Source of the DNA: Mobula hypostoma
Lineage: Eukaryota
Assembly (NCBI RefSeq): GCF_963921235.1
Contig: NC_086097.1
Span: 126,978,001-127,042,000, forward strand
Reading direction: 5' to 3'
Length of the DNA: 64,000 nucleotides
The notes beneath the pieces are model-generated. The model was given only the letters and a program-made list of their open reading frames with translations, searched no databases and was not told where the DNA came from. A program made the position numbers and the translations under genes. Below, one piece after another: positions 1-56,248 of this stretch (the first letter of the stretch is position 1; every line of letters starts with the position of its first letter).

Positions 1-604
1 ATCATCTTCCCAAGCACCTTCTCCCTAGTTATAGCAACAACACTCACTTCTGACCCCTGACACTCTCAAATTTCTAGCATACTGCTAGTGTCTTCCACAT
101 TGAAGACTGACGCAAAATGCTTATTAAGTTCATCTTCCATTTCATAGTCCCTATTACTGCCTCTCTGGTGTAATGTTCCAATGGTCCAATATCCACTTTG
201 GCCTCTCTTCTGTTCTTTATATAAGCTGAAAAAACTTCTGGTGCCCTCTTTTATATTATTGGCTAGCTTGTCTTCATATCTTGTCTTTTCTCTCTTATGG
301 CTTTTTAGTTGCCCTCTGTTTCTCCAAGCTTCCCAATCCTCTAACTTCCTGCTAACTTTTGCTATATTATATGACCTCTCTTTTGCTTTTGTGCTGTCTT
401 TGACTTCCCTTGTCAGCCAAGGTTGCCTCATTCTTCCTTTAGAATACTTCTTCATCTTTGGGATGTATCTAATCTGCACCTTCTGAATTGCTCCTAGAAA
501 CTCCAGCAATTGCCTTTCAGCCGTCATCCCTGCTAGTTTCCCCTTCTTTGGCCAGCTCCTTACTCATGCCTTTGTAGTTCCCATTATTCCACGGTAATAC
601 TGAT
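1..604 (-). mobile_element. CR1-like LINE ORF2 fragment (part interrupted by the HERO-like element)
   Basis: Translations QPWLTREVKD..K, LANNIK...FF, LNKHFASVF are typical of the CR1 ORF2 linker. Confidence 0.8.
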
Positions 605-908
605 CTTAGTCCAAGTGTATTTTTAACTCTTTTGTTCTGGACACCAGTGACTACCAGGAATAGTCTGGTGACAACGTGGAGAGACAGCGGACAGCCAGGG
701 AAGACTGGCACCGGGGGGTGTCAGGATTGGCAGTCCAGGCACCAGCTCAGAAGAGCACCCACCTCTTGAAGCTTCTAGTTTATACGGGGAAACATACCCT
801 CGGGGTCCTCCGAGAGGGAGGGAGAATGATGGACCCAATCGGACGGATACAGTTAATTACAGGGAACGACTACGACCAAGAGCTAGGATAAGAGGCTCTG
901 AGTGTCCA

Positions 909-3900
909 GTGTGTTGGTGTGGGAGAGCGTTTTCCAGCATTAAAGGTGTACGAATCCACCAAGCAAAGTTGAGGTGCTATTCCATCCCAGTGGATGAAGA
1001 TGAGATTACTTCACCAAGCATAGGTGATGTGGTCTTTTCAACCACTGATTCACAAGCCACAGCAATTCGCTCTGGAGAGAGGCATCATACTCCAGGTCAG
1101 ATGAGAGATAACCCAGGTCAGGTTTCAGACCACAGTACCCAGGTAGATCCTTCGCATGATGGCGGTGGTGAGGAGGTAGGGAAGAAGAGAAAGGTCAAGT
1201 GGCCAGCAATGGCAGATGAGAAGGCTTGACGTGTATTTGATGAGGATATCAGTATGATGTTGGAGAACACTCTCAGGGGAACACCAAAGAGGAAGTTGGA
1301 AGTGATGGGCAATATGATTTTCGATGTTGGAAAGTACAGGTTTGGTTTGGTTGAGTTGAAGAAAGCAAAGCCTACACAGCAACCAAGCAGGCACCAGAAG
1401 GAGATTAGTAGGTTGAGGAGAGAGCTTAGATTGTTGAGACTGAGGTGGAAGGTAGCAAGTGAGGGTGACAAGCCAGGGCTTGCTGATCTCCGAGAGCATT
1501 TTCGATTAAAGTTAGCATCACTCTGTCGTGCAGAGTCACAACGTCAAAAGAGAAAGAAGAGAGAGAAGGCAAGAAAGTCGTTCTTTGAGAACCCTCATGA
1601 GTTCACAAAGAAACTGTTTGAACAAAGTAAGAGTGGGCAGCTTAACATCTCTCAACAAGAACTTGAGGATCACCTGGCAAGCACTTACTCTAACGAACAG
1701 CGGGAGGCTCCTTTGCTTGACATTTCAGGGCTTGTGAAGCCTACCAAGCCAGGAGTGAAGTTCAATCTGTCAGAACCCAAACTGGCAGAAGTCGAACGGT
1801 TCATCAGAAAGGCAAGGTCAGGCTCAGTGCCAGGACCTAATGGAGTGCCGTATAACGTGTTCAAGAAGTGTGAACAGCTGAGAAAATACTTGTGGAGATT
1901 GTTAAAGGTGGTGTGGAGACAAGGTGTTGTTCCTTTGTCATGGAGTGAGGCTGAAGGAGAAAACATCCCGAAGGAAGAGAATTCTTCTATATTGAATCAG
2001 TTCCAACCAATTTCACTCCTGAATGTAGAGGGGAAGATTATGTTTGGCTTTCTGGCAGAAAGAATATCTTCATTTGTGATAGAGAATGGATTAGTAAATA
2101 CATCTGTGCAGAAGGCAGGAATACCAGGCTTCCCGGGATGCCTTGAACATTCTAGTATGATATGGCATACCGTCCAGGAGTCAAAAAGGTTGAGAATAAA
2201 TCTGGCTGTAGTTTGGCTTGATCTGGCAAATGCATATGGTTCTGTTCCCCATGTCCTGATTGAGTTTGCGATGGAATTCCTATGGATTCCTGCTAAGGTG
2301 AGGAACTTGGTTATGCAGTCCTGCAACGATTTCCGGATGAGGTTTTCCACTCAGCAGTTTACAACTAGGAGGCAGAGCTTGGATGTTGGAATCCCAATGG
2401 GATGTGCGATTTCACCCATCCTTTTTGTGTTAGCCGTGGAGGTCATTGTGAGGGCTGCAGAATCAGTGGGACCAGGTGTCGCACTTGATGGCGGAGGGGA
2501 GTTACCACCAATACGAGCGTTCATGGACGATCTCACCCTTTTGGGTCCCAGCACAGAGGCAGTGGAAAATGTACTAGCTAGACTCAAGGAGCTCATGGAT
2601 TGGGGAAGAATGAAGTTCAAGACCAAGAAGTCAAGGAGCCTTGTTCTCAGGAGAGGAAAGCTGGTTGACTTTCATTTCACCCTTTGTGGAGAGGAGATTC
2701 CATCCATTCAGGACCAACCAGTTAAGAGCCTTGTGCGATGGTACACAGAGGAGCTGAGAGACACCAAGAGGGTTCAAGAGACAGGAGAACAGATCAATAG
2801 AGGTCTGATGTCTGTTGACAAGTGTGGCTTGCCTGGCAAGTTGAAGTTGTGGTGCTTGCAGTATGGACTGATGCCATGGATAATGTGGCCACTAACTGTC
2901 TATGAGGTGGCAATGTCCCATGTTGAGGCAATGGAATGGAAGATCAACAAGTATGTGAAGAAGTGGCTTGGAGTACCGAGCAGCCTCACCAATGTTGCAA
3001 TCCACAGTAGCCAGACAAAGCTTACCATCCCAGTGCAATCCCTCATTGAAGAGGTCAAGGTTGCCAAGGTAAGATCATTCTTGATGCTTTGAGACTCAAA
3101 AGACCCTGTCATCAAGAATACCCAGCCAGATGTGAGATCAGACAGGAAGTGGTCAGCCCGTGTAGCAGTTGATGAGGCAGAGTCTAGACTGAAGCACAAA
3201 GAGACGGTTGGGACTATCCAGTTAGGCCACCAGGGACTTGGGTGGACAACCCACAAGTGGTGGTCATCTTCTACAGGTAAGGAGTGCCGTGAGCTTGTAA
3301 CACAAGAAATACGAGAGGTAGAAGAGGAGAAGAGGTTAGCTAAAACAGCTGGCCTGGCCAAACAAGGGGCTTGGACTTGGTGGGAAAGTGTTGAACAACG
3401 ACATCTATCTTGGAATGTTCTGTGGCAGATGGAACCGCTCCGTATTTCTGTTCTATGCAGAGCAGCGTACGATCTGCTCCAAACACCTGCCAACCTCAGC
3501 ACCTGGTATGAAGGTAAGACAGGCAGGTGTGCTGCTTGTGGCGAGAAGGGAACACTTCAACATATTTTGAGTGCATGCAGAGTCAATCTTTCCAGCGGCA
3601 TATACATATGGAGACATAACAACTTTCTCAAAGTTGTAACAGAAGCGGTTGAGCAGAGAGTACTGCAGCACAACTTATCTCAAACCCCATGCTGCACAGA
3701 ACATCGCATATTATTTGTGAAAGAAGGCTCCAAGTCAAGGGTGTACAGCGCAGGCTCACGATCAAGCATACTTTCTTCAGCCAATGATTGGTGTGTCAAG
3801 GCCGACCTGGATGGGAAAGGCAGTTTCCCGGAGCAAATAGCTTTCACCACATTGCGTCCAGATATATTTGTATGGTCTAACACCAGTAGAGAAGTGGTTA

Positions 3901-4187
3901 TTGGTGAACTCACAGTCCCCTGGGAAGACAACATCGATGAAGCCCATGAGCGCAAGTTAACCAAGTATGGAGAATTAAGATCAGAGTGCAGAGACAGAGG
4001 GTGGAAGGTCTCATGCTATCCATTTGAAGTAGGCTGCCGTGGGTTTATTGCGTTCACTCTCCAGAAGTGGCTGCGTGACCTTGGCTTCACTAGAAGAGAG
4101 ATCAAGTCAACCAGCAGGGCTGTAGCTGAGGCAGCAGAGAAAGGATCAGCATGGATGTGGACCAAGTATGTCCAGAGGGGCAGATAG
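909..4187 (+). pseudogene. HERO-like ZnF-RT-RLE polyprotein, one frame broken by two TGA stops (1227-1229, 3090-3092)
   Basis: ORFs 909-1229, 1254-3092 and 3132-4187 share a frame, which is open upstream to 672. Confidence 0.88.
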
Positions 4188-4338
4188 TCAGACAGTGTAT
4201 ACATATCTTGCAAACCCTTCAATAGTTGCATAGACACCTGAAGAGCAGACTATCTGTTGGATGGAAGTGACTGATAGTGGCAGATGCCAAGTTTTTAAGC
4301 TCACCAGGGGGAGGTGGTGCTTTAGCACTGCTGGCCCA

Positions 4339-4414
4339 CCACCTCGAGGGAGTCTTGATCATAAGCGGGCTGAAACTCCTGAAGACAGGTGGCGGATCAA
4401 CTGATGATCCCACT
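4339..4414 (+). ncRNA. Putative non-circularly permuted hammerhead ribozyme in HERO 3' UTR
   Basis: GGAGUC (4349-54) pairs with GAAACUCC (4372-79); UUGAUC (4355-60) pairs with GAUCAA (4395-4400), followed by CUGAUGA (4401-07); extra helix CCACCU/AGGUGG. Confidence 0.7.
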
Positions 4415-4465
4415 GGTGATAGCACAGGACAGTTAACATGTTAGTCCAAGTGTATTTTTAACTCT

Positions 4466-5544: not shown

Positions 5545-7745
5545 GTGGGAGTGGAATTATGACACTATTAGGCAGGAACTTGGGAGCTTAATTCAGGAAC
5601 GTTGTACTCAGGGAAATTCACAATGGAAATGTGAACATTGTTTAGGAAGCATTTGCATGGGGTTCTTTATAAGTTTATCCTATTGAGACAGGGGAAGGTT
5701 GATAGGGTACAAGAAGAAGAAGGAAGCTTAAATAAGGTTCAGAAAGCAAGGATCAGGCAGGGCTCTAGATAATTACAAAGTAGCCAGGGAGGAGCTGAAG
5801 AATGGATTAGGAGAGAAGCCCTTGACGAGTAGAATTAAGGAAAACCCCAAGGTGTTCTACACGTGTGAAGAAGAGGAGGATGACTAGACTGACGATAGGA
5901 TTGATCGGGGATAGAAGAGGAAATGTTCCTGAAGTCGATGGAGATATGGGAGGTCCTTAATGAATACCTTGCTCCAGTATTCACCAGTGAGAGGGATATT
6001 GATGATTGTGAGGGTAGCGCAAAATCAACTGATAGATTGGAACACCTTGACATTAAGAAAGAAGACCAGCATGAACTTTTGAAAAACATTAGGCTAGATG
6101 ACTCCCCAGTGCTGATAGGATATACCCCAGGTTACTACGGCAAGCAGGGGAAGAGATTACTATGCCTTTGGCAATTATCTTTGCACCCCTACTGTCTTCA
6201 GAGATTTGTTCTGGAACCCCTGCACTTTGTGATTTTTATAAATGACTTGGATGAGGAATTGGAAGAGTTGGTTAGTAAGTTTGCAGGTGATATGAAGGTT
6301 GTGGAAATTGTGAGTAGGATAGAAAGTTGTCATAGGATACAGTGGGATGGATATTGACGGGCTGCAGAGCGGGTCTGAGAGGTGGCAGATGGAGTTCAAT
6401 CTGAAGAAATATGAAGTGATTCATTTTGAAAGATCAAATTTGAAGGCAGAATACACGGTTAATGACATGATTCTTGGAATCCACGTCTACAGATCTCTCA
6501 AAGTCGCCACACAGGTTGATAGGGTGATTAACAAGGTAAGCGGTATGTTTGCCTTCATTAGTCAGGGGATTGAGTTCAAGGCCGCGAAGTAATGTTGCAG
6601 CTCTGTAAAACCCTGGTTAGACCACTCTTGAATTATTGTGTTCAATAATCCAACGTAGATTGGGAGACGCTTCACCAAGCATCTACGTTCCGTCGGCCAG
6701 AACAAGCGGGATCTGCCAGTGGCCAGCCATTTTAATCTCATTCCCATTCTGATATGTTCATCCATGGCCTCCACTGTCAGGATAAGGCCACACTTCGGTT
6801 GAAGGAACAACACCTTATATTCTGTTTGGGTAGCCTCCAACCTGATGGCATGAACATCAATTTCTCAAACTTCCAGTAATGCCTCCACCCCACACTTCTC
6901 CATTTCCCTTCCCCTTGTCCCTGTCTCTTGTTATCTCCTTGCCTGCCCATCGCCTCCCTCTGGTGCTTCTCCCGCGCCCCCCCTTCTTCTTTCTTCCATG
7001 GCCTTCTGTCTCTTTCACCGATCAATTTCCCAGCTCCTTGCTTTATCCCTCCCCCTCCAAGTTTCATCTATCGCCTGGTGTTTCTCTCTCCCATCCCCAC
7101 ACCTTTCAAATCTACTCCTCAGCTTTTTTTCTCCAGTCCTGCTGAAGGATTTCAGCCCGAAACATTGACTGTACTCTTTTCCATAGATGCTGCCTGGCCT
7201 GCTGAATTCCTCCAGCATTTTATGTGTGTTATTGTGCTCAGTTGTGGTTGCCTCATTATAGGAACGATGTAGAGGCTTTAGAGAGGGTGCAGATGAGATT
7301 TCCCAGGATGATGCTCAGATTAGAGAGCATGTCTTGTGAGGATCGGTTGATTGAGCTGAGGCTTTTCTCTTTGCAGTGAAAGAGGGTGAAAGGGCACTTA
7401 ATAGAGGTATACAAGGTGAAAAGATTGACTTTCCCAGGATGGAAATGGCAAATATGAGGAGGCATAATTTTTAGGTGGTTGGTGGAAAGTATAGAGGGGA
7501 TGTCAAAGTAAGTTCTTTACACAGGGTGATGAGTGTATGAAACACATTGTCAGGGATGGTGATAAAGGCAGATACATTAGAGACATTTAAGAAACTTCTA
7601 GAGAGATCCATGGATGATAGAAAATTGGAGGACTGTGTAGAAATGAATGAATGATTAGATTGATTTAAGAGTAGATTAAAAGGTTGGCACAATATTGTGG
7701 GCTGAATTGTCTGTACTGTGCTGCAATGTTCTATGCTCTAAAACC
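5545..7745 (+). mobile_element. Degenerate CR1-like LINE, interrupted by a Penelope fragment
   Basis: LNEYLAPVFT, FVIFINDLDE..VSKFAGD, WQMEFN..K.EVIHF; CR1-type 3' UTR ending tgttctatgctcta. Confidence 0.8.
6645..7228 (+). mobile_element. Penelope-like element 3' fragment (GIY-YIG C-terminus plus pseudo-LTR with degenerate hammerhead)
   Basis: Homologous to 19745-20068; flanked by near-identical 12-bp repeat ttattgtgYtca (6633-44, 7229-40); cagtc-ctgctga...gaaacatt-gactg at about 7134-7171. Confidence 0.75.
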
Positions 7746-17199: not shown

Positions 17200-17424
17200 A
17201 CAACAGGAATTCTGCAGATGCTGGAAACTCAAGCAACACACATCAAAGTTGCTGGTGAACGCAGCAGGCCAAGCAGCATCTGTAGGAAGAGGTGCAGTCG
17301 ACGTTTCAGGCCGAGACCCTTCTTCAGTCCTGATGAAGGGTCTCGGCCTGAAACGTCGACTGCACCTCTTCCTACAGATGCTGCTTGGCCTGCTGCGTTC
17401 ACCAGCAACTTTGATGTGTGTTGC
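17200..17424. mobile_element. Palindromic Penelope pseudo-LTR mini-element with 15-bp TSD
   Basis: Perfect 90-bp inverted arms 17233-17322 and 17335-17424; TSD ttgcccttgatgggg at 17185-99 and 17421-35. Confidence 0.88.
17325..17362 (+). ncRNA. Minimal type I hammerhead ribozyme (Penelope type)
   Basis: CAGUC-CUGAUGA-stem II-GAAA-C-GUC-GACUG; stem I CAGUC/GACUG; palindromic ACGU stem III as in dimeric PLE hammerheads. Confidence 0.85.
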
Positions 17425-25214: not shown

Positions 25215-28130
25215 GAGACTGGGTGACCAACCACGAAAAGAGTGGTGACGACTGGAGAGTCAGTGACAGCCCGGAGAGACAGCAACCAGGGCAGAACGGG
25301 CTGGCAACCCAATCTGTGTCCTCTGAAAGGAGGACCCCCACATAAGCCACAAAGAATCTAGGAAAAGATACCCCCAGGGGTGCCCGAGAGGGGGGGAGGA
25401 TGAGCACCCCAGTCGGAAGGACACAATGACATCAGACCCAGGCAATGAACAAACGACGATGAGGAAGCAGTGTGCACGTGGCAGAATCTGCAAGAACGAT
25501 CGTGGCTTGAAGATCCACCAAGCGAGGATGAAGTGTTTGGCGGGAGCAGGAGCAGCACAACACGCAACTGTCCAACGTGGTGAGACGAAGGAAGGGCCAG
25601 GCCCGGAGTCACCCCATAGTGCCCGGAACCTCCAAGTGTTGCAAACTAATCCCTCGAACATGAGTAACAGGAGGCGGATCAAATGGTCTGCAGCTAACAT
25701 GACTTCACTGTGGAAGCAGTTTGATGAAGATGTTAACCAAATTCTGGAGGCAACGGCGAAGGGAGGGGCTGATAGGAAGATGCAAGCCATGACAACAATT
25801 ATTGTCAGTATCGCAGCTGAACGGTTCGGAGAAGAGGAGAAGGAAGGCTCCAAAACATCTTACTCGAAGAACCAAAGAGCATCGAGGATCCACAACATCA
25901 GGCAGGAGATGAAAGCGCTGAAGTCCCAATACAAGGAGGCAGGAGAAGAGGAGTGCATTGGCTTGGCCCAGCTGATGTGCATACTACGAAAGAAGATCAG
26001 GGTCCTCTGCCGGGCAGAGTGGCATTGGAGGCGGCAGCATGAAAGGGCTCGAAAACATGCTGCCTTTATCACCAATCCCTTCAAGTTCACCAAGGAGTTG
26101 CTGGGGGAGAAGCGCAGAGGGAAACTGGCCTGTTCACAGGTAGACTTAGACCAACATCTGAAGAAGATATATAATGATCCTGAAAGAGAGCAGGAGTTGG
26201 GAGAGTGCGACATCCTAATAGACCCACCTGAACCGGATGTGCAGTTCGACATGTCAGAGCTGCAGCTAAAGGAAGTCAGAGAGGTCGTCCGCAAAGCAAA
26301 GACAAGCTCGGCTCCAGGACTAAGCAACACCTCGTACAAAGTGTACAAGAATTGCCCCAAACTCCTGCTGCGTCTGTGGAAGGTCCTGAGAATCTTCTGG
26401 AGAAGGGGGAAAACCCCAGAGCAGTGGAGAGTGGCTGAAGGGGTGTGGATCCTGAAGGAGGAAAATGACACCCAGATAGATCAGTTTCACATCATCTCCC
26501 TGCTGTGTGTCGAGGCGAAGATCTTCTTCAGTGCAGTTTCTAAACGGCTCTTTAAGGGCCACAACATCCATTCAGGCAACCTGCACCGAGTTGGATGGCT
26601 GGCTGAGATCTGTGGACAAGTCTGGCCTACCTGGGAAGTTTAAAGCCTGGATGTATCAGCATGGCATTCTTCCCAGAATCCTATGGCCCCTCCTCATCTA
26701 TGCAGTCCCGATCTCGACAGTCGAAACCTTAGAGAGGAGGGTTAGCAACCACCTCAGGAGATGGCTGGGGCTGCCAAAGAGCCTGAGCAGCATCGCACTC
26801 TATGGACACCACAACAAACTGCAACTGCCCTTCAAATCCTTGGAGGAGGAATTCAAGGTAACAAGAGCCAGAGAAGTGCTACAGTACAGGGACTCAAGTG
26901 ACCCGAAGGTGGCTAGAGCAGGGATCCAAGTAAGTATTGGCAGGAAGTGGAGGGCAGAGGAAGCTGTTCAGGAGGCAGAGGCAAGGCTGCATCACAGGAG
27001 GCTGGTGGGAGTGGTCACACGAGGCCGAGCTGGGCTAGGATCCTTTCCAACTCCCCAAATGGACACCAGAGGGAAGGAAAGGCGTCATCTAGTTCAGGAG
27101 GAGGTGAGAGCAGTAGTGGAGGAGATGAGAGCCTGCAAGGCGGTGGGAATGAAGCAACAGGGAGCTTGGACAAGATGGGAGAATGCGGTTGAGAGGAAGG
27201 TGACCTGGGCTGATCTTTGGAAAGCCGAACCACACCGCATCCAATTTCTCATCCAGGCAGTGTACGATATGCTTCCAAGTCCATCAAACCTGCACACATG
27301 GGGCAAGGCAGAGTCATCTGCGTGCCCACTGTGCTCTAAGCGAGGAACCCTGGAGCACATCCTCAGCGGCTGTGCAAGGGCACTTGGTGAGGGACGGTAC
27401 AGGTGGAGGCATGATCAGGTCCTGAAGACCATCGCTGAAGCTGTCAGCGCAGGAGTTGAGTGGGCGAAGCGGTCCCGACCCTCCAAGCAGACCATTGCCT
27501 TTGTCAGAGCTGGGGAGCAGCCAATACCTGCCAACAGAACATCTGCAGGCATTCTGACCCCTGCAAGGGACTGGCAGCTGTTGGTGGACCCCGAAGGGCA
27601 GCTGAAGTTCCCCAACCATATCGCAGCCACCGCCCTGCAACCAGACGTTGTCCTAGTGTCTGAGTCGACTAAGCAAGTGGTGCTGCTGGAGCTGACAGTC
27701 CCATGGGAAGATAGCTTGGAAGAGGCCTTTGAAAGGAAGCTCTCCAAGTACGCAGGACTGGTCAGCAACTGTCAGCAGGCTGGATGGAGAGCGAGGTGTC
27801 TCCCAGTGGAGGTTGGTTGTAGGGGATTTGTAGCCCGTTCTTCAGTTAGAGCCTTCAGCATTTTGGGCATCGAGGGAGAGAGGAAGAGGAGAGCCATCCG
27901 CAGTACCACCAATGCGGCAGAGAGGGCCTCAAGATGGCTGTGGCTCAAAAGAGGGGAGCCATGGAGTCATAAGTAGCTAGCCATCTGGACACAAGCTGGG
28001 GTCTGATCAGCCCCGGCTGGGTCACCTGGGGGAGGCTGTATGACGTTGAAAGACCCGAAACACCCGATGATTCCAGGAACATCACTGAAGATGTGTCCAG
28101 AAGCATCAATAGATGTATGTACACAACAGT
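25215..28130 (+). mobile_element. Second, divergent HERO-like retrotransposon with internal deletion of the RT core
   Basis: Zinc finger CARGRICKNDRGLKIHQARMKC, GLPGKFK, CPLCSKRGTLEHILSGC, RHD, PDVV..ELTVPWE..K.SKY; no xxDD region, frameshifted junction near 26550. Confidence 0.9.
28025..28098 (+). ncRNA. Putative permuted hammerhead ribozyme in second HERO 3' UTR
   Basis: GGcUGUA (28034-40) pairs with GAAACACCC (28057-65); UGAcGUU (28041-47) pairs with AACAUCA (28078-84), followed by CUGAAGA (28085-91); extra helix CCUGG/CCAGG. Confidence 0.65.
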
Positions 28131-37080: not shown

Positions 37081-37269
37081 CACGAGGAAATCTGCAGATG
37101 CTGGAATTTCAAGCAACACACATAAAAGTTGCTGATGAATGCAGCAGGCCAGGCAGCATCTGACGAAGGGTCTGACTAAGTCCTGACGAAGGGTCTCGGC
37201 CCGAAACGTCGTCTGTGCCTCTTCCTAGAGATGCTGCCTGGCCTGCTGCATTCACCAGCAACTTTTATG
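37081..37269. mobile_element. Palindromic Penelope pseudo-LTR mini-element
   Basis: Inverted arms, hammerhead core ctgacga...gaaacgtc at about 37183-37210, flanking repeat aggatagYggaa. Confidence 0.75.
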
Positions 37270-48269: not shown

Positions 48270-48760
48270 AGCAAGAGATCCCAATGGGATGGAATCCTCC
48301 ATCCCCTTCTCCTATAGCCAACTCTCCTCTGCCTTCATCTCCAGCCCTTTACCTTTCTCCCCACCTGGCTTCAGCAATCACCTTCTAGCTAGCCTTCTTC
48401 ACCTCCTCCCTCTTTTTTTATTCTGGTGTCTTCCCCCTTCCTTTCCAGTCCTGAAGAGGGGTCTCAGCCCGAAATGTCAACTTTGTTCATTTCCATCGAT
48501 GCTGTCTAACCTGCTGAGTTCTTCCAGAGTTTTGTTAATGTTGATCTAAAACGTACAACTTGGGCACTGGAAAGATGAATAGGGTTTAATCCTGTGGACT
48601 ATAAATATAAAAGACAAGCAGCATGGTCCTGCTGAAGAGTCTTGGCCCAAAACATCGACTATATTCTTTTCCGTATATGCTGCCAGGCCTGCTGAGTTCC
48701 TCCAGCATTTTGTGTGTGTTGCATGGATTTCCAGCATCTGCAGATTTTCTCTTGTCTGTA
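48270..48760 (+). mobile_element. Two Penelope pseudo-LTR fragments with degenerate hammerheads
   Basis: ctgaaga...gaaatgtc near 48451 and ctgctga...aaaacatc near 48629, each followed by the shared gctgcc..ctgagtt..cagc tail. Confidence 0.7.
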
Positions 48761-55760: not shown

Positions 55761-56136
55761 AGCAAGTGTAAAGGAGGGGGAAAAGCCTCCACCCACAGCT
55801 TATTTTAGCTTCTCTGACCGAAGCCTCTCCTCACTGAAGCCTCAAAATCTCCACTCTAACTCTGTCCATTCCAGCGATGCTCTGAGAATGGCTGCTCTGC
55901 TCCGATGGCCACTGCCTAACTTTAATTTGTTCTTGCCAATCAATCCCGAACACTGGCTGCCATCCAAAGCTCCAAAACTGCCGAGAGTCGCTGTCCTTTT
56001 GACTCAATCAGCGAATGGTAGCGAACTATGTACCTCTCCGATTGGCTGCTGCTCAAAGCTCATCTTAAAGACTGCTGTCAGGTCACCCTCAGTTGCCTTT
56101 TCTCAGAAGTGAGGCCCAGTCTGCTCATGCTTTTCT

Positions 56137-56248
56137 CACGTGTACCTCCTCCTATACTGCCACATATCCCTGCACCCTCGCGATTCCCACATCACATGTA
56201 CCCCCTCCTATACTTCCACATATCCCTGCACCCTCATGATTCCCACAT
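56137..56248. repeat. Tandem duplication, two 56-bp units
   Basis: cacRtgtaccYcctcctatactKccacatatccctgcaccctcRYgattcccacat repeated twice. Confidence 0.85.

What the first reader, a model, noticed from the sequence alone, without database searches (positions are those of the whole stretch)
4339..4414. Non-circularly permuted hammerhead ribozyme in the 3' UTR of a HERO-like LINE
Seen: all three hammerhead core segments are present with supporting helices, but in the order NUH, then GAAA, then CUGANGA. Canonical types I/II/III are cyclic permutations of NUH, CUGANGA, GAAA, so this order cannot be reached by circular permutation. Stem III: GGAGU(C) 4349-54 with (GAA)ACUCC 4372-79. Stem I: UUGAUC 4355-60 with GAUCAA 4395-4400, directly followed by CUGAUGA 4401-07. 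Imperfect stem II: AGcGGG 4364-69 with CCCaCU 4409-14. An extra helix CCACCU/AGGUGG clamps the fold. Predicted cleavage is after C4354. Known: R2 elements use 5' HDV-like ribozymes, and natural non-circular hammerhead permutations have been reported; I cannot confirm whether they have been linked to HERO 3' ends. Inference: an active or recently active self-cleaving RNA processing the element transcript.
Basis: partly seen in the sequence, partly recalled or inferred. Interest (0 to 1): 0.92.

Follow-up and report, generated by a model that had tools for sequence, protein, structure and literature searches.

The report
New hammerhead ribozyme form in LINEs
An RNA fold with every sequence hallmark of a self-cutting hammerhead ribozyme, wired in a way not described before, sits just after the coding part of a widespread family of jumping genes; the cutting itself has not yet been shown.

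Summary
Stems I and III, the clamp helix and all core boxes are real.

Related LINEs (31-78% protein identity) from metagenome contigs carry the same motif right after the ORF stop. This holds for 33 of 40 loci with enough downstream DNA. There are 51 model hits, all on the sense strand, including a second copy in this window at 27985-28105.

The helices covary: 88-93% of cells are paired, against 34-49% when the partners are slid. Core letters are near-invariant, while N7 and H17 vary as in hammerheads; H17 is never G (0 of 43).

The true stem II is 4333-4337/4367-4371. CUGAUGA runs into a long helix P1 (4301-4312/4408-4419) plus a hairpin (4313-4332). This makes a four-way junction between A9 and G10.1. 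It amounts to a circular permutation of the published type SGC, broken inside its block C.

My searches found no paper describing this form, or any hammerhead in RLE LINEs. Cleavage after C4354 is inferred, not shown, and copies show no 5' ends piling up at 4355. Units lie head to tail, which suggests transcript processing as with the R2 and Penelope ribozymes.

The parts
672..4187 (+). LINE ORF in one frame, with in-frame stops at 1227-1229 and 3090-3092. It holds an N-terminal C2H2-like zinc finger, RT, a CCHC motif and a PD..E..K-type endonuclease motif.
   Evidence: searches (RVT_1, E 1.3e-14; R2 and L1 RT structures, E 6e-18 to 1e-16), and the conserved C-terminal motifs in the consensus.
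603..630 (+). Leader: a copy of the element's own last 28 nt placed directly before its 5' UTR (5' UTR starts at 631).
   Evidence: 22 of 22 full-length copies examined have such a leader.
4301..4312 (+). P1 5' strand. In the family consensus it pairs 12 of 12 with 4408-4419. The window copy has G4308 in place of U, giving one mismatch.
4313..4332 (+). Hairpin Px (8 bp including G.U pairs, UUUA loop). It fills the space between P1 and stem II with no unpaired letters.
   Evidence: 18 of 32 instances fold closed at both ends; predicted de novo.
4333..4337 (+). Stem II 5' strand GGCCC. G4333 = G10.1.
   Evidence: (G in 42 of 42).
4339..4344 (+). Clamp helix K 5' strand CCACCU. It corresponds to the fourth helix that ties stems I and II together.
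   Evidence: 89-92% paired, with compensatory changes.
4345..4347 (+). Linker CGA with a conserved GA.
   Evidence: G in 34 of 43, A in 36 of 43.
4348..4353 (+). Stem III 5' strand GGGAGU. U4353 = U16.1.
   Evidence: U in 41 of 42; 96.8% paired.
4354..4354 (+). C17, the predicted cleavage site. The cut would fall between 4354 and 4355.
   Evidence: By position in the core. H17 is C 17, U 15, A 11, G 0. Cleavage was not tested.
4355..4360 (+). Stem I 5' strand UUGAUC.
   Evidence: 91-95% paired; all pairs show changes on both sides.
4361..4366 (+). Short linker from stem I to stem II (AUAAGC).
   Evidence: 11-17 nt between H17 and G12.
4367..4371 (+). Stem II 3' strand GGGCU. Position 4371 = 11.1; it is C in half of the close copies and U in the other half, so G-C or G.U.
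   Evidence: T 15, C 15; GC 25, GU 2.
4372..4375 (+). GAAA: G12, A13, A14, A15.1.
   Evidence: 43 of 44, then 44 of 44 three times.
4375..4380 (+). Stem III 3' strand ACUCCU.
4381..4386 (+). Linker GAAGAC with conserved G4384 and A4385.
   Evidence: 39 of 41 each.
4387..4392 (+). Clamp helix K 3' strand AGGUGG.
4395..4400 (+). Stem I 3' strand GAUCAA.
4401..4407 (+). CUGAUGA box, C3 to A9.
   Evidence: 41-42 of 42 at each fixed position; N7 is U 26, C 9, A 5, G 2.
4408..4419 (+). P1 3' strand UCCCACUGGUGA.
4420..4465 (+). Last 46 nt of the element. Homology among copies ends at about 4465.
25273..27949 (+). Second, distantly related RLE LINE fragment (41% identity over the C-terminal 480 aa).
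27985..28105 (+). Second instance of the ribozyme motif, 36 nt after the end of that fragment's protein homology. The core is intact, with one mismatch each in stems I and III.
   Evidence: 80.1 bits, E 4e-17.

Best explanation
Window 4301-4419 is a hammerhead-type self-cleaving ribozyme of a topology not described so far. It is conserved just after the ORF stop in a clade of restriction-like-endonuclease LINEs (HERO-like).

From 5' to 3' the chain runs: P1 5' strand, hairpin Px, stem II 5' strand, clamp 5' strand, stem III 5' strand, U16.1-C17, stem I 5' strand, short linker, stem II 3' strand, GAAA, stem III 3' strand, clamp 3' strand, stem I 3' strand, CUGAUGA, P1 3' strand.

All three junction strands of a hammerhead are present. 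The exception is that A9 is not joined to G10.1. Two helices (P1 and Px) are inserted there with no unpaired letters. This allows a four-way junction in which the core can still stack on stem II. If P1 and Px are removed and the chain is opened between the clamp and stem III, the result is the published type SGC.

Inferred: the RNA cuts itself after C4354 by the usual hammerhead chemistry, leaving a 2',3'-cyclic phosphate and a 5'-OH (chemistry recalled).

Inferred with less certainty: the units lie head to tail (leaders or tandem arrays). The ribozyme therefore sits between the stop of one ORF and the opening of the next, often AUG-less, ORF. It would cut multimeric or read-through transcripts into defined RNAs, as the HDV-like ribozyme does for R2 and hammerheads do for Penelope-like elements and retrozymes.
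For: Shown:
- Motif found in relatives. Among 45 metagenome loci of related LINEs that contain the end of the ORF, 34 have CUGANGA within 450 nt after the stop. 38 descriptor hits (32 unique) all lie on the sense strand.
- Model R1 gives 51 hits at E <= 0.01 in 357 kb searched on both strands. All are on the + strand, and 33 of 40 loci with at least 150 nt after the stop have one there.
- On a sequence-only MAFFT alignment of 27 instances, 92.6% of cells pair, against 66.0% in shuffles and 34-49% when slid. The covariation score is 0.630 against 0.179, reached by 0 of 500 shuffles. On the 45 distinct model-aligned rows it is 88.1% against 58.8%.
- Core counts in 45 distinct rows: G10.1 42/42, C11.1 41/44, G12 43/44, A13, A14 and A15.1 44/44 each, U16.1 41/42, C3 41/42, U4, G5 and A6 42/42 each, G8 41/42, A9 42/42. 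The two positions that are free in hammerheads vary: N7 is U26 C9 A5 G2; H17 is C17 U15 A11 G0.
- The one row with U3 also has A8. This is the core pair known to covary (recalled).
- RNAalifold alone predicts P1, Px and stem II abutting each other. P1 is at least 7 bp in 22 of 32 instances, against 1 of 32 in a reversed-strand control, and starts right after A9 in 19.
- A second LINE in the window, at 41% protein identity, has the motif in the same place.
- Head-to-tail layout. 22 of 22 full-length copies in the genome are preceded by the element's 3' tail at one precise junction. In 14 metagenome contigs with a motif upstream of an ORF, the frame opens 24-240 nt after it in 12. Two motifs lie 4365 nt apart in L171 and about 3720 nt apart in L156.
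- There is no in-frame AUG before the zinc finger in 3 of 3 copies.
Against: - No cleavage was observed by any search.
- None of 30 genome-order copies begins at 4355. Their 5' ends are scattered; the nearest are at 4320, 4333, 4337, 4341 and 4388.
- None of 22 leaders begins at 4355. Nine run on through the site, two of them for 656 and 890 nt. The RNAs that were copied were therefore uncut, religated or bridged there.
- A break of the chain between A9 and G10.1 has no precedent that I could find, so activity cannot be assumed from the core alone.
- Rfam has no match, as expected for a permuted order.
- In contigs of one other organism's run, the deepest contig over this part carries G12 to A plus a change in stem II (run X12, depth 61.7 of 88). 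A copy lineage without an intact core can therefore be abundant.
- Within the young family, 64 copies show 0 compensatory changes in any helix. Support comes only from distant relatives, which are unnamed metagenome contigs.
- The instances used for the alignment were picked by a descriptor that required at least 4 pairs per helix, which inflates the share paired. The model search and RNAalifold reduce this bias but do not remove it.
Confidence: 0.6

Rival explanations
1. The fold is a structured 3' UTR module that the element's reverse transcriptase binds to start target-primed reverse transcription. It keeps a hammerhead-like shape, but cleavage is absent or irrelevant.
For: It lies in the 3' UTR within about 165 nt of the 3' end, where R2-type elements have protein-binding pseudoknots (passage in the listing; R2 biology otherwise recalled). 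Copied RNAs run through the site uncut in 9 of 22 leaders and in most truncated copies. The 134-nt domain folds better than shuffles (z -3.10).
Against: A binding platform does not explain why exactly the catalytic letters of the hammerhead are fixed. It also does not explain why N7 and H17 vary in the hammerhead manner (H17 never G, 0 of 43), or why U3 appears only together with A8. The two roles are not exclusive.
Confidence: 0.2
2. The ribozyme is active, but its role is to limit the element. Cutting in the 3' UTR detaches the last 111 nt, where reverse transcription starts, from the coding RNA. Only uncut RNAs would then transpose.
For: All insertions end at about 4465, downstream of the site. 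No copy starts at 4355.
Against: A purely self-limiting device is unlikely to be kept across LINEs that differ by up to about 69% in protein. The head-to-tail layout gives the same ribozyme a position upstream of an ORF.
Confidence: 0.1
3. One reading: a true type-SGC hammerhead whose stem II is AGCGGG 4364-4369 with CCCACU 4409-4414.
For: The letters can pair 3+2 with one mismatch. The order of the three boxes and the short stem I to stem II linker match type SGC.
Against: Across 27 relatives these columns pair in 50% of cells, the same as slid controls. The 3' strand belongs to the 12-bp helix P1. That pairing would leave a 1x2 internal loop next to the core. The alternative stem II is adjacent to G12 and covaries.
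Confidence: 0.03
4. A chance look-alike inside a repeat.
For: A descriptor of this quality hits random sequence about 0.16 times per Mb without stem II and about 0.02 times per Mb with a weak one. That amounts to hundreds per genome.
Against: The same architecture, with covarying helices, is found in 45 distinct sequences and always on the sense strand just after the ORF.
Confidence: 0.01

Closest known systems
Type-SGC hammerhead ribozymes (Eckert, Friedrich, Weinberg and Weinberg, NAR 2023, PMC10085705). I read the abstract, sections 13, 14 and 15, part 1 of section 18, and supplement passages.
   Same: Same order of the three core boxes (site, GAAA, CUGANGA). One side of stem I is joined to one side of stem II by a few letters. 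A fourth helix ties the other sides of stems I and II. All core letters are kept.
   Different: There, CUGANGA runs straight into the stem II strand and the fourth-helix strand ends the RNA. Here the stem II strand and the fourth-helix strand lie upstream of the cleavage site, and CUGANGA runs into an extra helix P1 followed in the chain by hairpin Px. The authors' block C is therefore split, which they assumed does not occur. Their RNAs come from IMG/M metatranscriptomes next to hairpin ribozymes; apart from one RefSeq bacterium for type GCS, all accessions are IMG/M. The tested SGC-3 leaves only an 18-nt 5' product, too short for the 54 nt needed here.
Classical hammerheads of types I, II and III, including those with a loop-loop pseudoknot ('helix IV'; PMC11300833, search listing only).
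   Same: Same core letters, three stems around them, a conserved G10.1-C11.1 pair, a free N7 and H17, and a helix linking stems I and II.
   Different: They are three-way junctions with A9 joined to 10.1 and contain no pseudoknot in the core. No Rfam hammerhead model matches here.
HDV-like ribozyme at the 5' end of R2 and other non-LTR elements (R2 review PMC13580325, passages read; the rest recalled).
   Same: A self-cleaving RNA carried by an RLE LINE, placed upstream of an ORF that lacks a conserved AUG. It is thought to free the element RNA from a longer transcript.
   Different: It is a different ribozyme class. R2's ribozyme is at the 5' end and cuts at its own 5' edge. This one is encoded in the 3' UTR and reaches a 5' position only through the head-to-tail layout. 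About 54 nt of it lie upstream of the cut.
Hammerheads of Penelope-like elements and retrozymes (PMC4209133 and PMC7229834, search listing and abstract starts only).
   Same: Hammerheads in terminal repeats or tandem units of retroelements, which cut multimeric transcripts. The window also holds such minimal type I motifs.
   Different: Those are small type I hammerheads, often active as dimers, in elements with a GIY-YIG nuclease or none. Here the fold is a 119-nt pseudoknotted structure in an autonomous RLE LINE.

Membership tests
Hammerhead ribozyme (catalytic core) | CUGANGA box with N7 free | tested here: met
   Window 4401-4407. In 45 distinct rows, C3 is 41/42, U4, G5 and A6 are 42/42, G8 is 41/42 and A9 is 42/42; N7 is U26 C9 A5 G2.
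Hammerhead ribozyme (catalytic core) | GAAA, with its last A paired to U16.1 | tested here: met
   G12 43/44; A13, A14 and A15.1 44/44. The 15.1-16.1 pair is U-A in 41 of 42.
Hammerhead ribozyme (catalytic core) | Cleavage-site nucleotide H (not G) after U16.1 | tested here: met
   C17 U15 A11 G0. The seed sequences were chosen with H; the added model hits follow the same rule.
Hammerhead ribozyme (catalytic core) | Stems I, II and III directly flanking the core strands, supported by covariation | tested here: met
   Stem I 91-95%, stem II 94-96% and stem III 96-97% of cells paired. 4 to 6 pairs per helix show changes on both sides. Slid controls give 34-49%.
Hammerhead ribozyme (catalytic core) | Unbroken chain from A9 into stem II (three-way junction) | tested here: not met
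   A9 is followed by P1. G10.1 is preceded by hairpin Px.
Hammerhead ribozyme (catalytic core) | Site-specific self-cleavage giving 2',3'-cyclic phosphate and 5'-OH | not testable with these tools
   All four runs laid were Logan contigs, not raw reads, so RNA ends could not be read. Genomic copies show no ends at 4355.
Hammerhead ribozyme (catalytic core) | Match to a curated hammerhead covariance model | tested here: not met
   0 matches at the gathering threshold. At E <= 10 only a chance snoRNA match appears. This is expected for a permuted order.
Type-SGC hammerhead (Eckert et al. 2023) | Order block S, block G, block C | tested here: inconclusive
   The three boxes are in this order, but block C is not in one piece.
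Type-SGC hammerhead (Eckert et al. 2023) | Block C uninterrupted: stem I strand, CUGANGA, stem II strand | tested here: not met
   The letters after CUGANGA pair with the G-block strand in only 50% of cells. The stem II 5' strand is at 4333-4337.
Type-SGC hammerhead (Eckert et al. 2023) | Short linker from stem I to stem II, and a fourth helix tying their other sides | tested here: met
   There are 11-17 nt from H17 to G12. The clamp helix is 89-92% paired with compensatory changes.
HERO clade of RLE non-LTR retrotransposons | RT, followed by a CCHC motif and a PD-(D/E)xK-type endonuclease, with no AP endonuclease | tested here: met
   RVT_1 is the only Pfam hit. The CCHC and RPD...ELTVPWE...K motifs are conserved in the 19-sequence alignment. 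The C-terminal part has no match among solved structures.
HERO clade of RLE non-LTR retrotransposons | Mostly non-specific insertion sites, unlike CRE, R2, R4 and NeSL (PMC4640811, passage read) | tested here: met
   Flanks of 30 and then 30 more copies differ from each other.
HERO clade of RLE non-LTR retrotransposons | Placement with reference HERO elements in an RT tree | not tested
   No reference HERO sequence was at hand. The closest named relatives are amphioxus proteins at 67-71% identity.

The most novel reading that the evidence does not exclude
An autonomous LINE clade found across animals uses a four-way-junction, permuted hammerhead to cut head-to-tail transcripts into unit-length RNAs. 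The ends of these RNAs stay clamped by about 29 bp of ribozyme helices, or are ligated into circles. Reverse transcriptase then runs round this nicked or closed circle. That would explain two observations: every full-length copy continues seamlessly from its 5' UTR into the 3' tail, often through the ribozyme, and no copy ends at the cut. It would be a retrozyme-like, circular-RNA life cycle in an element that encodes its own enzyme.
Probability: 0.2. Interest if true: 0.95.

Novelty: new variant of a known kind. Interest (0 to 1): 0.88.

Why it matters
Hammerheads were long thought to exist only as types I-III, and one 2023 paper added non-circular permutations from metatranscriptomes. This finding would matter in four ways.

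- It would show that the core tolerates a break between A9 and G10.1 bridged by two extra helices. That goes against the working rule that the three blocks cannot be split, and it widens what motif searches should look for.
- It would place a permuted hammerhead in animal genomes for the first time.
- It would give RLE LINEs outside R2 a ribozyme of their own, in a conserved place. This makes testable how these promoter-poor, AUG-less elements make and translate their RNA.
- It would provide a compact, strongly clamped ribozyme scaffold for engineering.

A covariance model now exists (R1) with which eukaryotic genomes can be screened.

Tried and rejected
- Rfam gave nothing.
- Earlier notes of this scan hold no look-alike by sequence or by words.
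- Covariation inside the young family is uninformative: 64 copies show 0 double changes in any helix.
- A protein search of the window's own genome was saturated by the same family. 150 of 11001 candidates were scored, all at 88-100% identity.
- Read laying covered four runs, all kept as contigs. No starts, ends or joints were listed, and contigs bridge 4354/4355 in a run only guessed to be RNA. This gives no verdict on expression or cleavage.
- The jump in contig depth at 4376 led me to a 'family B' that shares the last ~90 nt. I first took it for a SINE-like partner and for evidence that the CUGAUGA stretch is kept for RT binding. I rejected both ideas. B is a 902-nt LTR: two copies 97.3% alike flank 3.2 kb holding a SCAN plus zinc-knuckle ORF on the other strand. 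It reads CUGCUGA or CUGUUGA in 16 of 16 typical copies. It has no motif (R1 at most 13 bits). It therefore says nothing about the ribozyme.
- Before relatives were in hand I considered hairpin P2 (4313-4319 with 4337-4343), and also P1 acting as stem II. Both were dropped, because Px, the clamp and the new stem II are what covary.
- A test for 5' ends at the cut was negative: 0 of 30 random copies and 0 of 22 leaders.
- The C-terminal domain has no sequence match among solved structures.
- PMC8370743 (part 1 read) and PMC3088659 (passages read) contain no helix insertion between A9 and G10.1.
Full report
WHAT IS IN THE WINDOW

They lie in the 3' UTR of a LINE. Its ORF runs in one frame from 672 to 4187, with two in-frame stops. 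The ORF has an RT domain (RVT_1, E 1.3e-14). That domain resembles solved R2 and L1 reverse transcriptases about equally. The C-terminal part carries CCHC and PD..E..K-type motifs that are conserved among relatives.

Homology among copies ends at about 4465.

The family is young and large in the window's 3.48-Gb genome. A 17-letter word from the motif occurs 1278 times, against 0 for the control. The best 40 matches are 98-100% identical. A genome-order sample of 30 copies is 89-96% identical.

The family consensus differs from the window copy at 4308 (U, not G), 4394 (A) and 4440. Position 4371 is C in half and U in half of 30 close copies.

IS ONE COPY BEYOND CHANCE?

Not by itself. In 44 Mb of random sequence it hits 7 times without stem II and once with a weak stem II. 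That means hundreds of chance hits per genome.

Within the family, 64 copies show no compensatory change in any helix. At that stage I rated a functional hammerhead as unlikely.

THE TURN

The RT piece has relatives at 67-71% identity in amphioxus. It has a 77% partial match in a stingray, and matches of about 45% in teleosts, bivalves and echinoderms.

An alignment of 19 of these relatives retrieved 80 loci of related LINEs from metagenome contigs, at 31-78% identity. Of these, 45 contain the end of the ORF plus downstream DNA.

Among the 45, 34 have CUGANGA within 450 nt after the stop. The printed contexts show one shared architecture with different letters in the helices. A stricter descriptor found 38 instances, 32 of them unique. 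All are on the sense strand.

THE STRUCTURE

From 5' to 3' in window coordinates:
- P1 5' strand, 4301-4312
- hairpin Px, 4313-4332
- stem II 5' strand GGCCC, 4333-4337
- clamp 5' strand, 4339-4344
- linker CGA
- stem III 5' strand, 4348-4353
- C17 at 4354
- stem I 5' strand, 4355-4360
- short linker
- stem II 3' strand GGGCU, 4367-4371
- GAAA, 4372-4375
- stem III 3' strand, to 4380
- linker with conserved GA at 4384-4385
- clamp 3' strand, 4387-4392
- stem I 3' strand, 4395-4400
- CUGAUGA, 4401-4407
- P1 3' strand, 4408-4419

Support from a sequence-only MAFFT alignment of 27 instances:
- This structure pairs in 92.6% of cells, against 66.0% in shuffles and 34-49% when partners are slid.
- 20 of 23 pairs show changes on both sides.
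- The covariation score is 0.630 against 0.179, reached by 0 of 500 shuffles.
- The new stem II pairs in 95.5% of cells. Its closing pair is G-C in 25 and G.U in 2.

RNAalifold, which cannot draw pseudoknots, predicts P1, Px and stem II abutting one another on its own.

P1 has at least 7 contiguous pairs in 22 of 32 unique instances, against 1 of 32 in a reversed-strand control. It starts directly after A9 in 19. In 18 the spacer between P1 and G10.1 folds as a hairpin closed at both ends. Some of the misses come from my own wrong segmentation, and from the G4308 change in the window copy.

THE MODEL SEARCH

Covariance model R1 was built with the clamp and stem III as nested pairs. It finds 51 matches at E <= 0.01 in the window plus the 80 loci (357 kb, both strands). 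All are on the + strand.

33 of 40 loci with at least 150 nt after the stop have a match there. It usually starts between 21 nt before and 142 nt after the stop.

The second site follows a second LINE fragment (25273-27949) that is only 41% identical in protein to the first.

On the 45 distinct aligned rows, the full pseudoknotted structure pairs in 88.1% of cells, against 58.8% in shuffles and 36-41% when slid.

WHY IT IS A HAMMERHEAD CORE

In those 45 rows the fixed hammerhead letters are all but invariant:
- G10.1 42/42
- C11.1 41/44
- G12 43/44
- A13, A14 and A15.1 44/44 each
- U16.1 41/42
- C3 41/42
- U4, G5 and A6 42/42 each
- G8 41/42
- A9 42/42

The two positions that are free in hammerheads are free here. 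N7 is U26 C9 A5 G2. H17 is C17 U15 A11 and never G.

The single row with U at position 3 has A at position 8. C3-G8 is a pair in the active fold, and U3-A8 is a known natural covariant; that point is recalled, and PMC3088659 was read only in passages.

I cannot think of a reason other than the hammerhead active site for this pattern.

HOW IT DIFFERS FROM WHAT IS PUBLISHED

Eckert et al. 2023 (PMC10085705; abstract, sections 13-15, part 1 of section 18 and supplement passages read) define blocks S, G and C. They assume the blocks cannot be interrupted. They describe type SGC with a roughly 3-nt link from stem I to stem II and a fourth helix tying the other sides.

The LINE motif shares all of that, with one difference. 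The stem II 5' strand and the fourth-helix strand that follows it lie upstream of block S, and CUGANGA runs into P1.

In other words, it is type SGC closed between the fourth helix and stem III, and opened between A9 and G10.1. That gap is bridged by P1 and Px with no unpaired letters.

Such a perfect four-way junction could stack as core-on-stem-II and P1-on-Px. That would leave the usual core geometry intact. This last point is inference.

Their tested SGC-3 has an 18-nt 5' product, and its oligo letters show a contiguous block C. It is therefore a different form.

Their sequences come from IMG/M metatranscriptomes, with one RefSeq bacterium for type GCS.

NOVELTY SEARCHES

The following full-text searches were run:
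- hammerhead + HERO + non-LTR: 0 papers
- hammerhead ribozyme + LINE + restriction-like endonuclease: 1 paper, on R2 engineering
- hammerhead + non-LTR retrotransposon + self-cleaving: 16 papers, none on RLE LINEs by title or abstract start
- 'type-SGC': only the 2023 paper
- hammerhead with additional or fourth helix, or four-way junction
- hammerhead with NeSL, Rex6, Utopia, R4 or RLE

None describes this form.

The library lacks most subscription journals. The supplementary figures of the 2023 paper are not readable here.

WHAT IT MAY DO

Shown:
- In the window's genome, 85 places match the start of the 5' UTR.
- In 22 of 22 that I examined (20 fetched, plus L028 and L029; the window copy is the same), the 5' UTR is preceded at one precise junction by the element's own 3' tail. 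The tail is 28 nt in the window copy (603-630). It exceeds 176 nt in nine copies, and is 656 and 890 nt in L029 and L028.
- In the metagenome contigs the motif also lies upstream of ORFs. In 14 such cases the frame opens 24-240 nt after it in 12.
- Two motifs lie 4365 nt apart in L171 and about 3720 nt apart in L156. Several contigs begin and end inside the motif.
- In 3 of 3 copies there is no in-frame AUG before the zinc finger.

So the ribozyme sits in a short spacer between head-to-tail units.

Inferred: it cuts multimeric or read-through transcripts. This parallels the HDV-like ribozyme of R2 (PMC13580325, passages) and the hammerheads of Penelope-like elements and retrozymes (listings only).

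Against a simple version of this:
- No copy starts at 4355 (0 of 30, 0 of 22), and many copied RNAs run through the site.
- After a cut, the two pieces would still be held by P1, stem II, the clamp and stem III, about 29 bp in all. A reverse transcriptase that jumps between template ends (recalled for R2) could cross the nick unseen.
- A closed circle would give the same picture.

These points are speculation and are scored as such.

SIDE TRAILS

The depth step at 4376 in the laid contigs comes from an LTR family that shares the last ~90 nt of the LINE. It has no bearing on the ribozyme.

In one other organism's run, the deepest contig over 4299-4402 has G12 changed to A and a stem II change. 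I count this against a universal need for the core in every abundant lineage.

Earlier notes of this scan on the same genome describe Penelope-type minimal hammerheads. The window has five such repeats. They are unrelated to this motif.

The scan had not noted this motif before.

VERDICT

It is a conserved hammerhead-type RNA in a new topology and a new host element. Self-cleavage and role remain to be shown.

Noticed in passing
window 25273-27949 and 27985-28105: A second, distantly related RLE LINE fragment (41% protein identity to the first over the C-terminal part). It carries the same ribozyme motif 36 nt after the end of its protein homology.
   Followed up: partly
window 603-630; loci L185-L204, L028, L029: Every full-length copy examined (22 of 22) has a piece of the element's own 3' tail joined precisely to its 5' UTR. 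The pieces range from a few letters to 890 nt. This points to multimeric, circular or end-jumped RNA templates.
   Followed up: partly
window 631-1229; L028, L029: The LINE ORF opens about 40 nt after the junction. It has no in-frame AUG before the zinc finger in 3 of 3 copies, as is known for R2 (recalled).
   Followed up: partly
L205 (own genome), L061, L062, L064, L067, L089-L104: An abundant LTR family (at least 3358 junction matches) has 902-nt LTRs flanking a SCAN plus zinc-knuckle gag-like ORF. Each LTR begins, in antisense, with about 90 nt that are 84-95% identical to the LINE's 3' tail from 4376 on. Its copy of the box reads CUGCUGA or CUGUUGA.
   Followed up: partly
L060, L071, L074: Head-to-head fold-back copies of the LINE tail. 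The inverted arm meets the forward arm at the same place (about 4390/4397) in L071 and L074, and at a similar place in L060.
   Followed up: no
window 7135-7225, 17326-17416, 37179-37269, 48447-48537, 48625-48715: A repeat family carrying a minimal type I hammerhead (CUGAUGA ... GAAAC GUCGAC), of the Penelope-like-element kind. The 17326 copy scores as a type I hit in my any-order descriptor. Earlier notes on this genome describe the same family.
   Followed up: partly
L142:18-137 and L143:1522-1641: A motif whose box reads UUGACAA: U3 together with A8, with all helices intact. This is one compensatory event in the core's tertiary pair.
   Followed up: partly
window 4346-4347 and 4384-4385, and the same columns in alignment A3: Two conserved GA dinucleotides face each other in the internal loop between the clamp helix and stem III (G 34/43 and A 36/43; G and A 39/41 each). 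Their role is unexplained; they may form tandem sheared G.A pairs.
   Followed up: no
L175, L141, L106, L114, L158, L181: Metagenome contigs of about 3.8-4 kb begin and/or end inside the motif, with roughly 60-120 nt of terminal redundancy. This is what assemblers produce from tandem arrays or circular molecules. The ends do not coincide with the predicted cut.
   Followed up: partly
window 66-563 (-) and 5905-6592 (+): Fragments of other LINE-type reverse transcriptase ORFs flank the element. They were not examined further.
   Followed up: no
window 56136-56247: Two tandem copies of a 56-nt unit, 91% alike.
   Followed up: no
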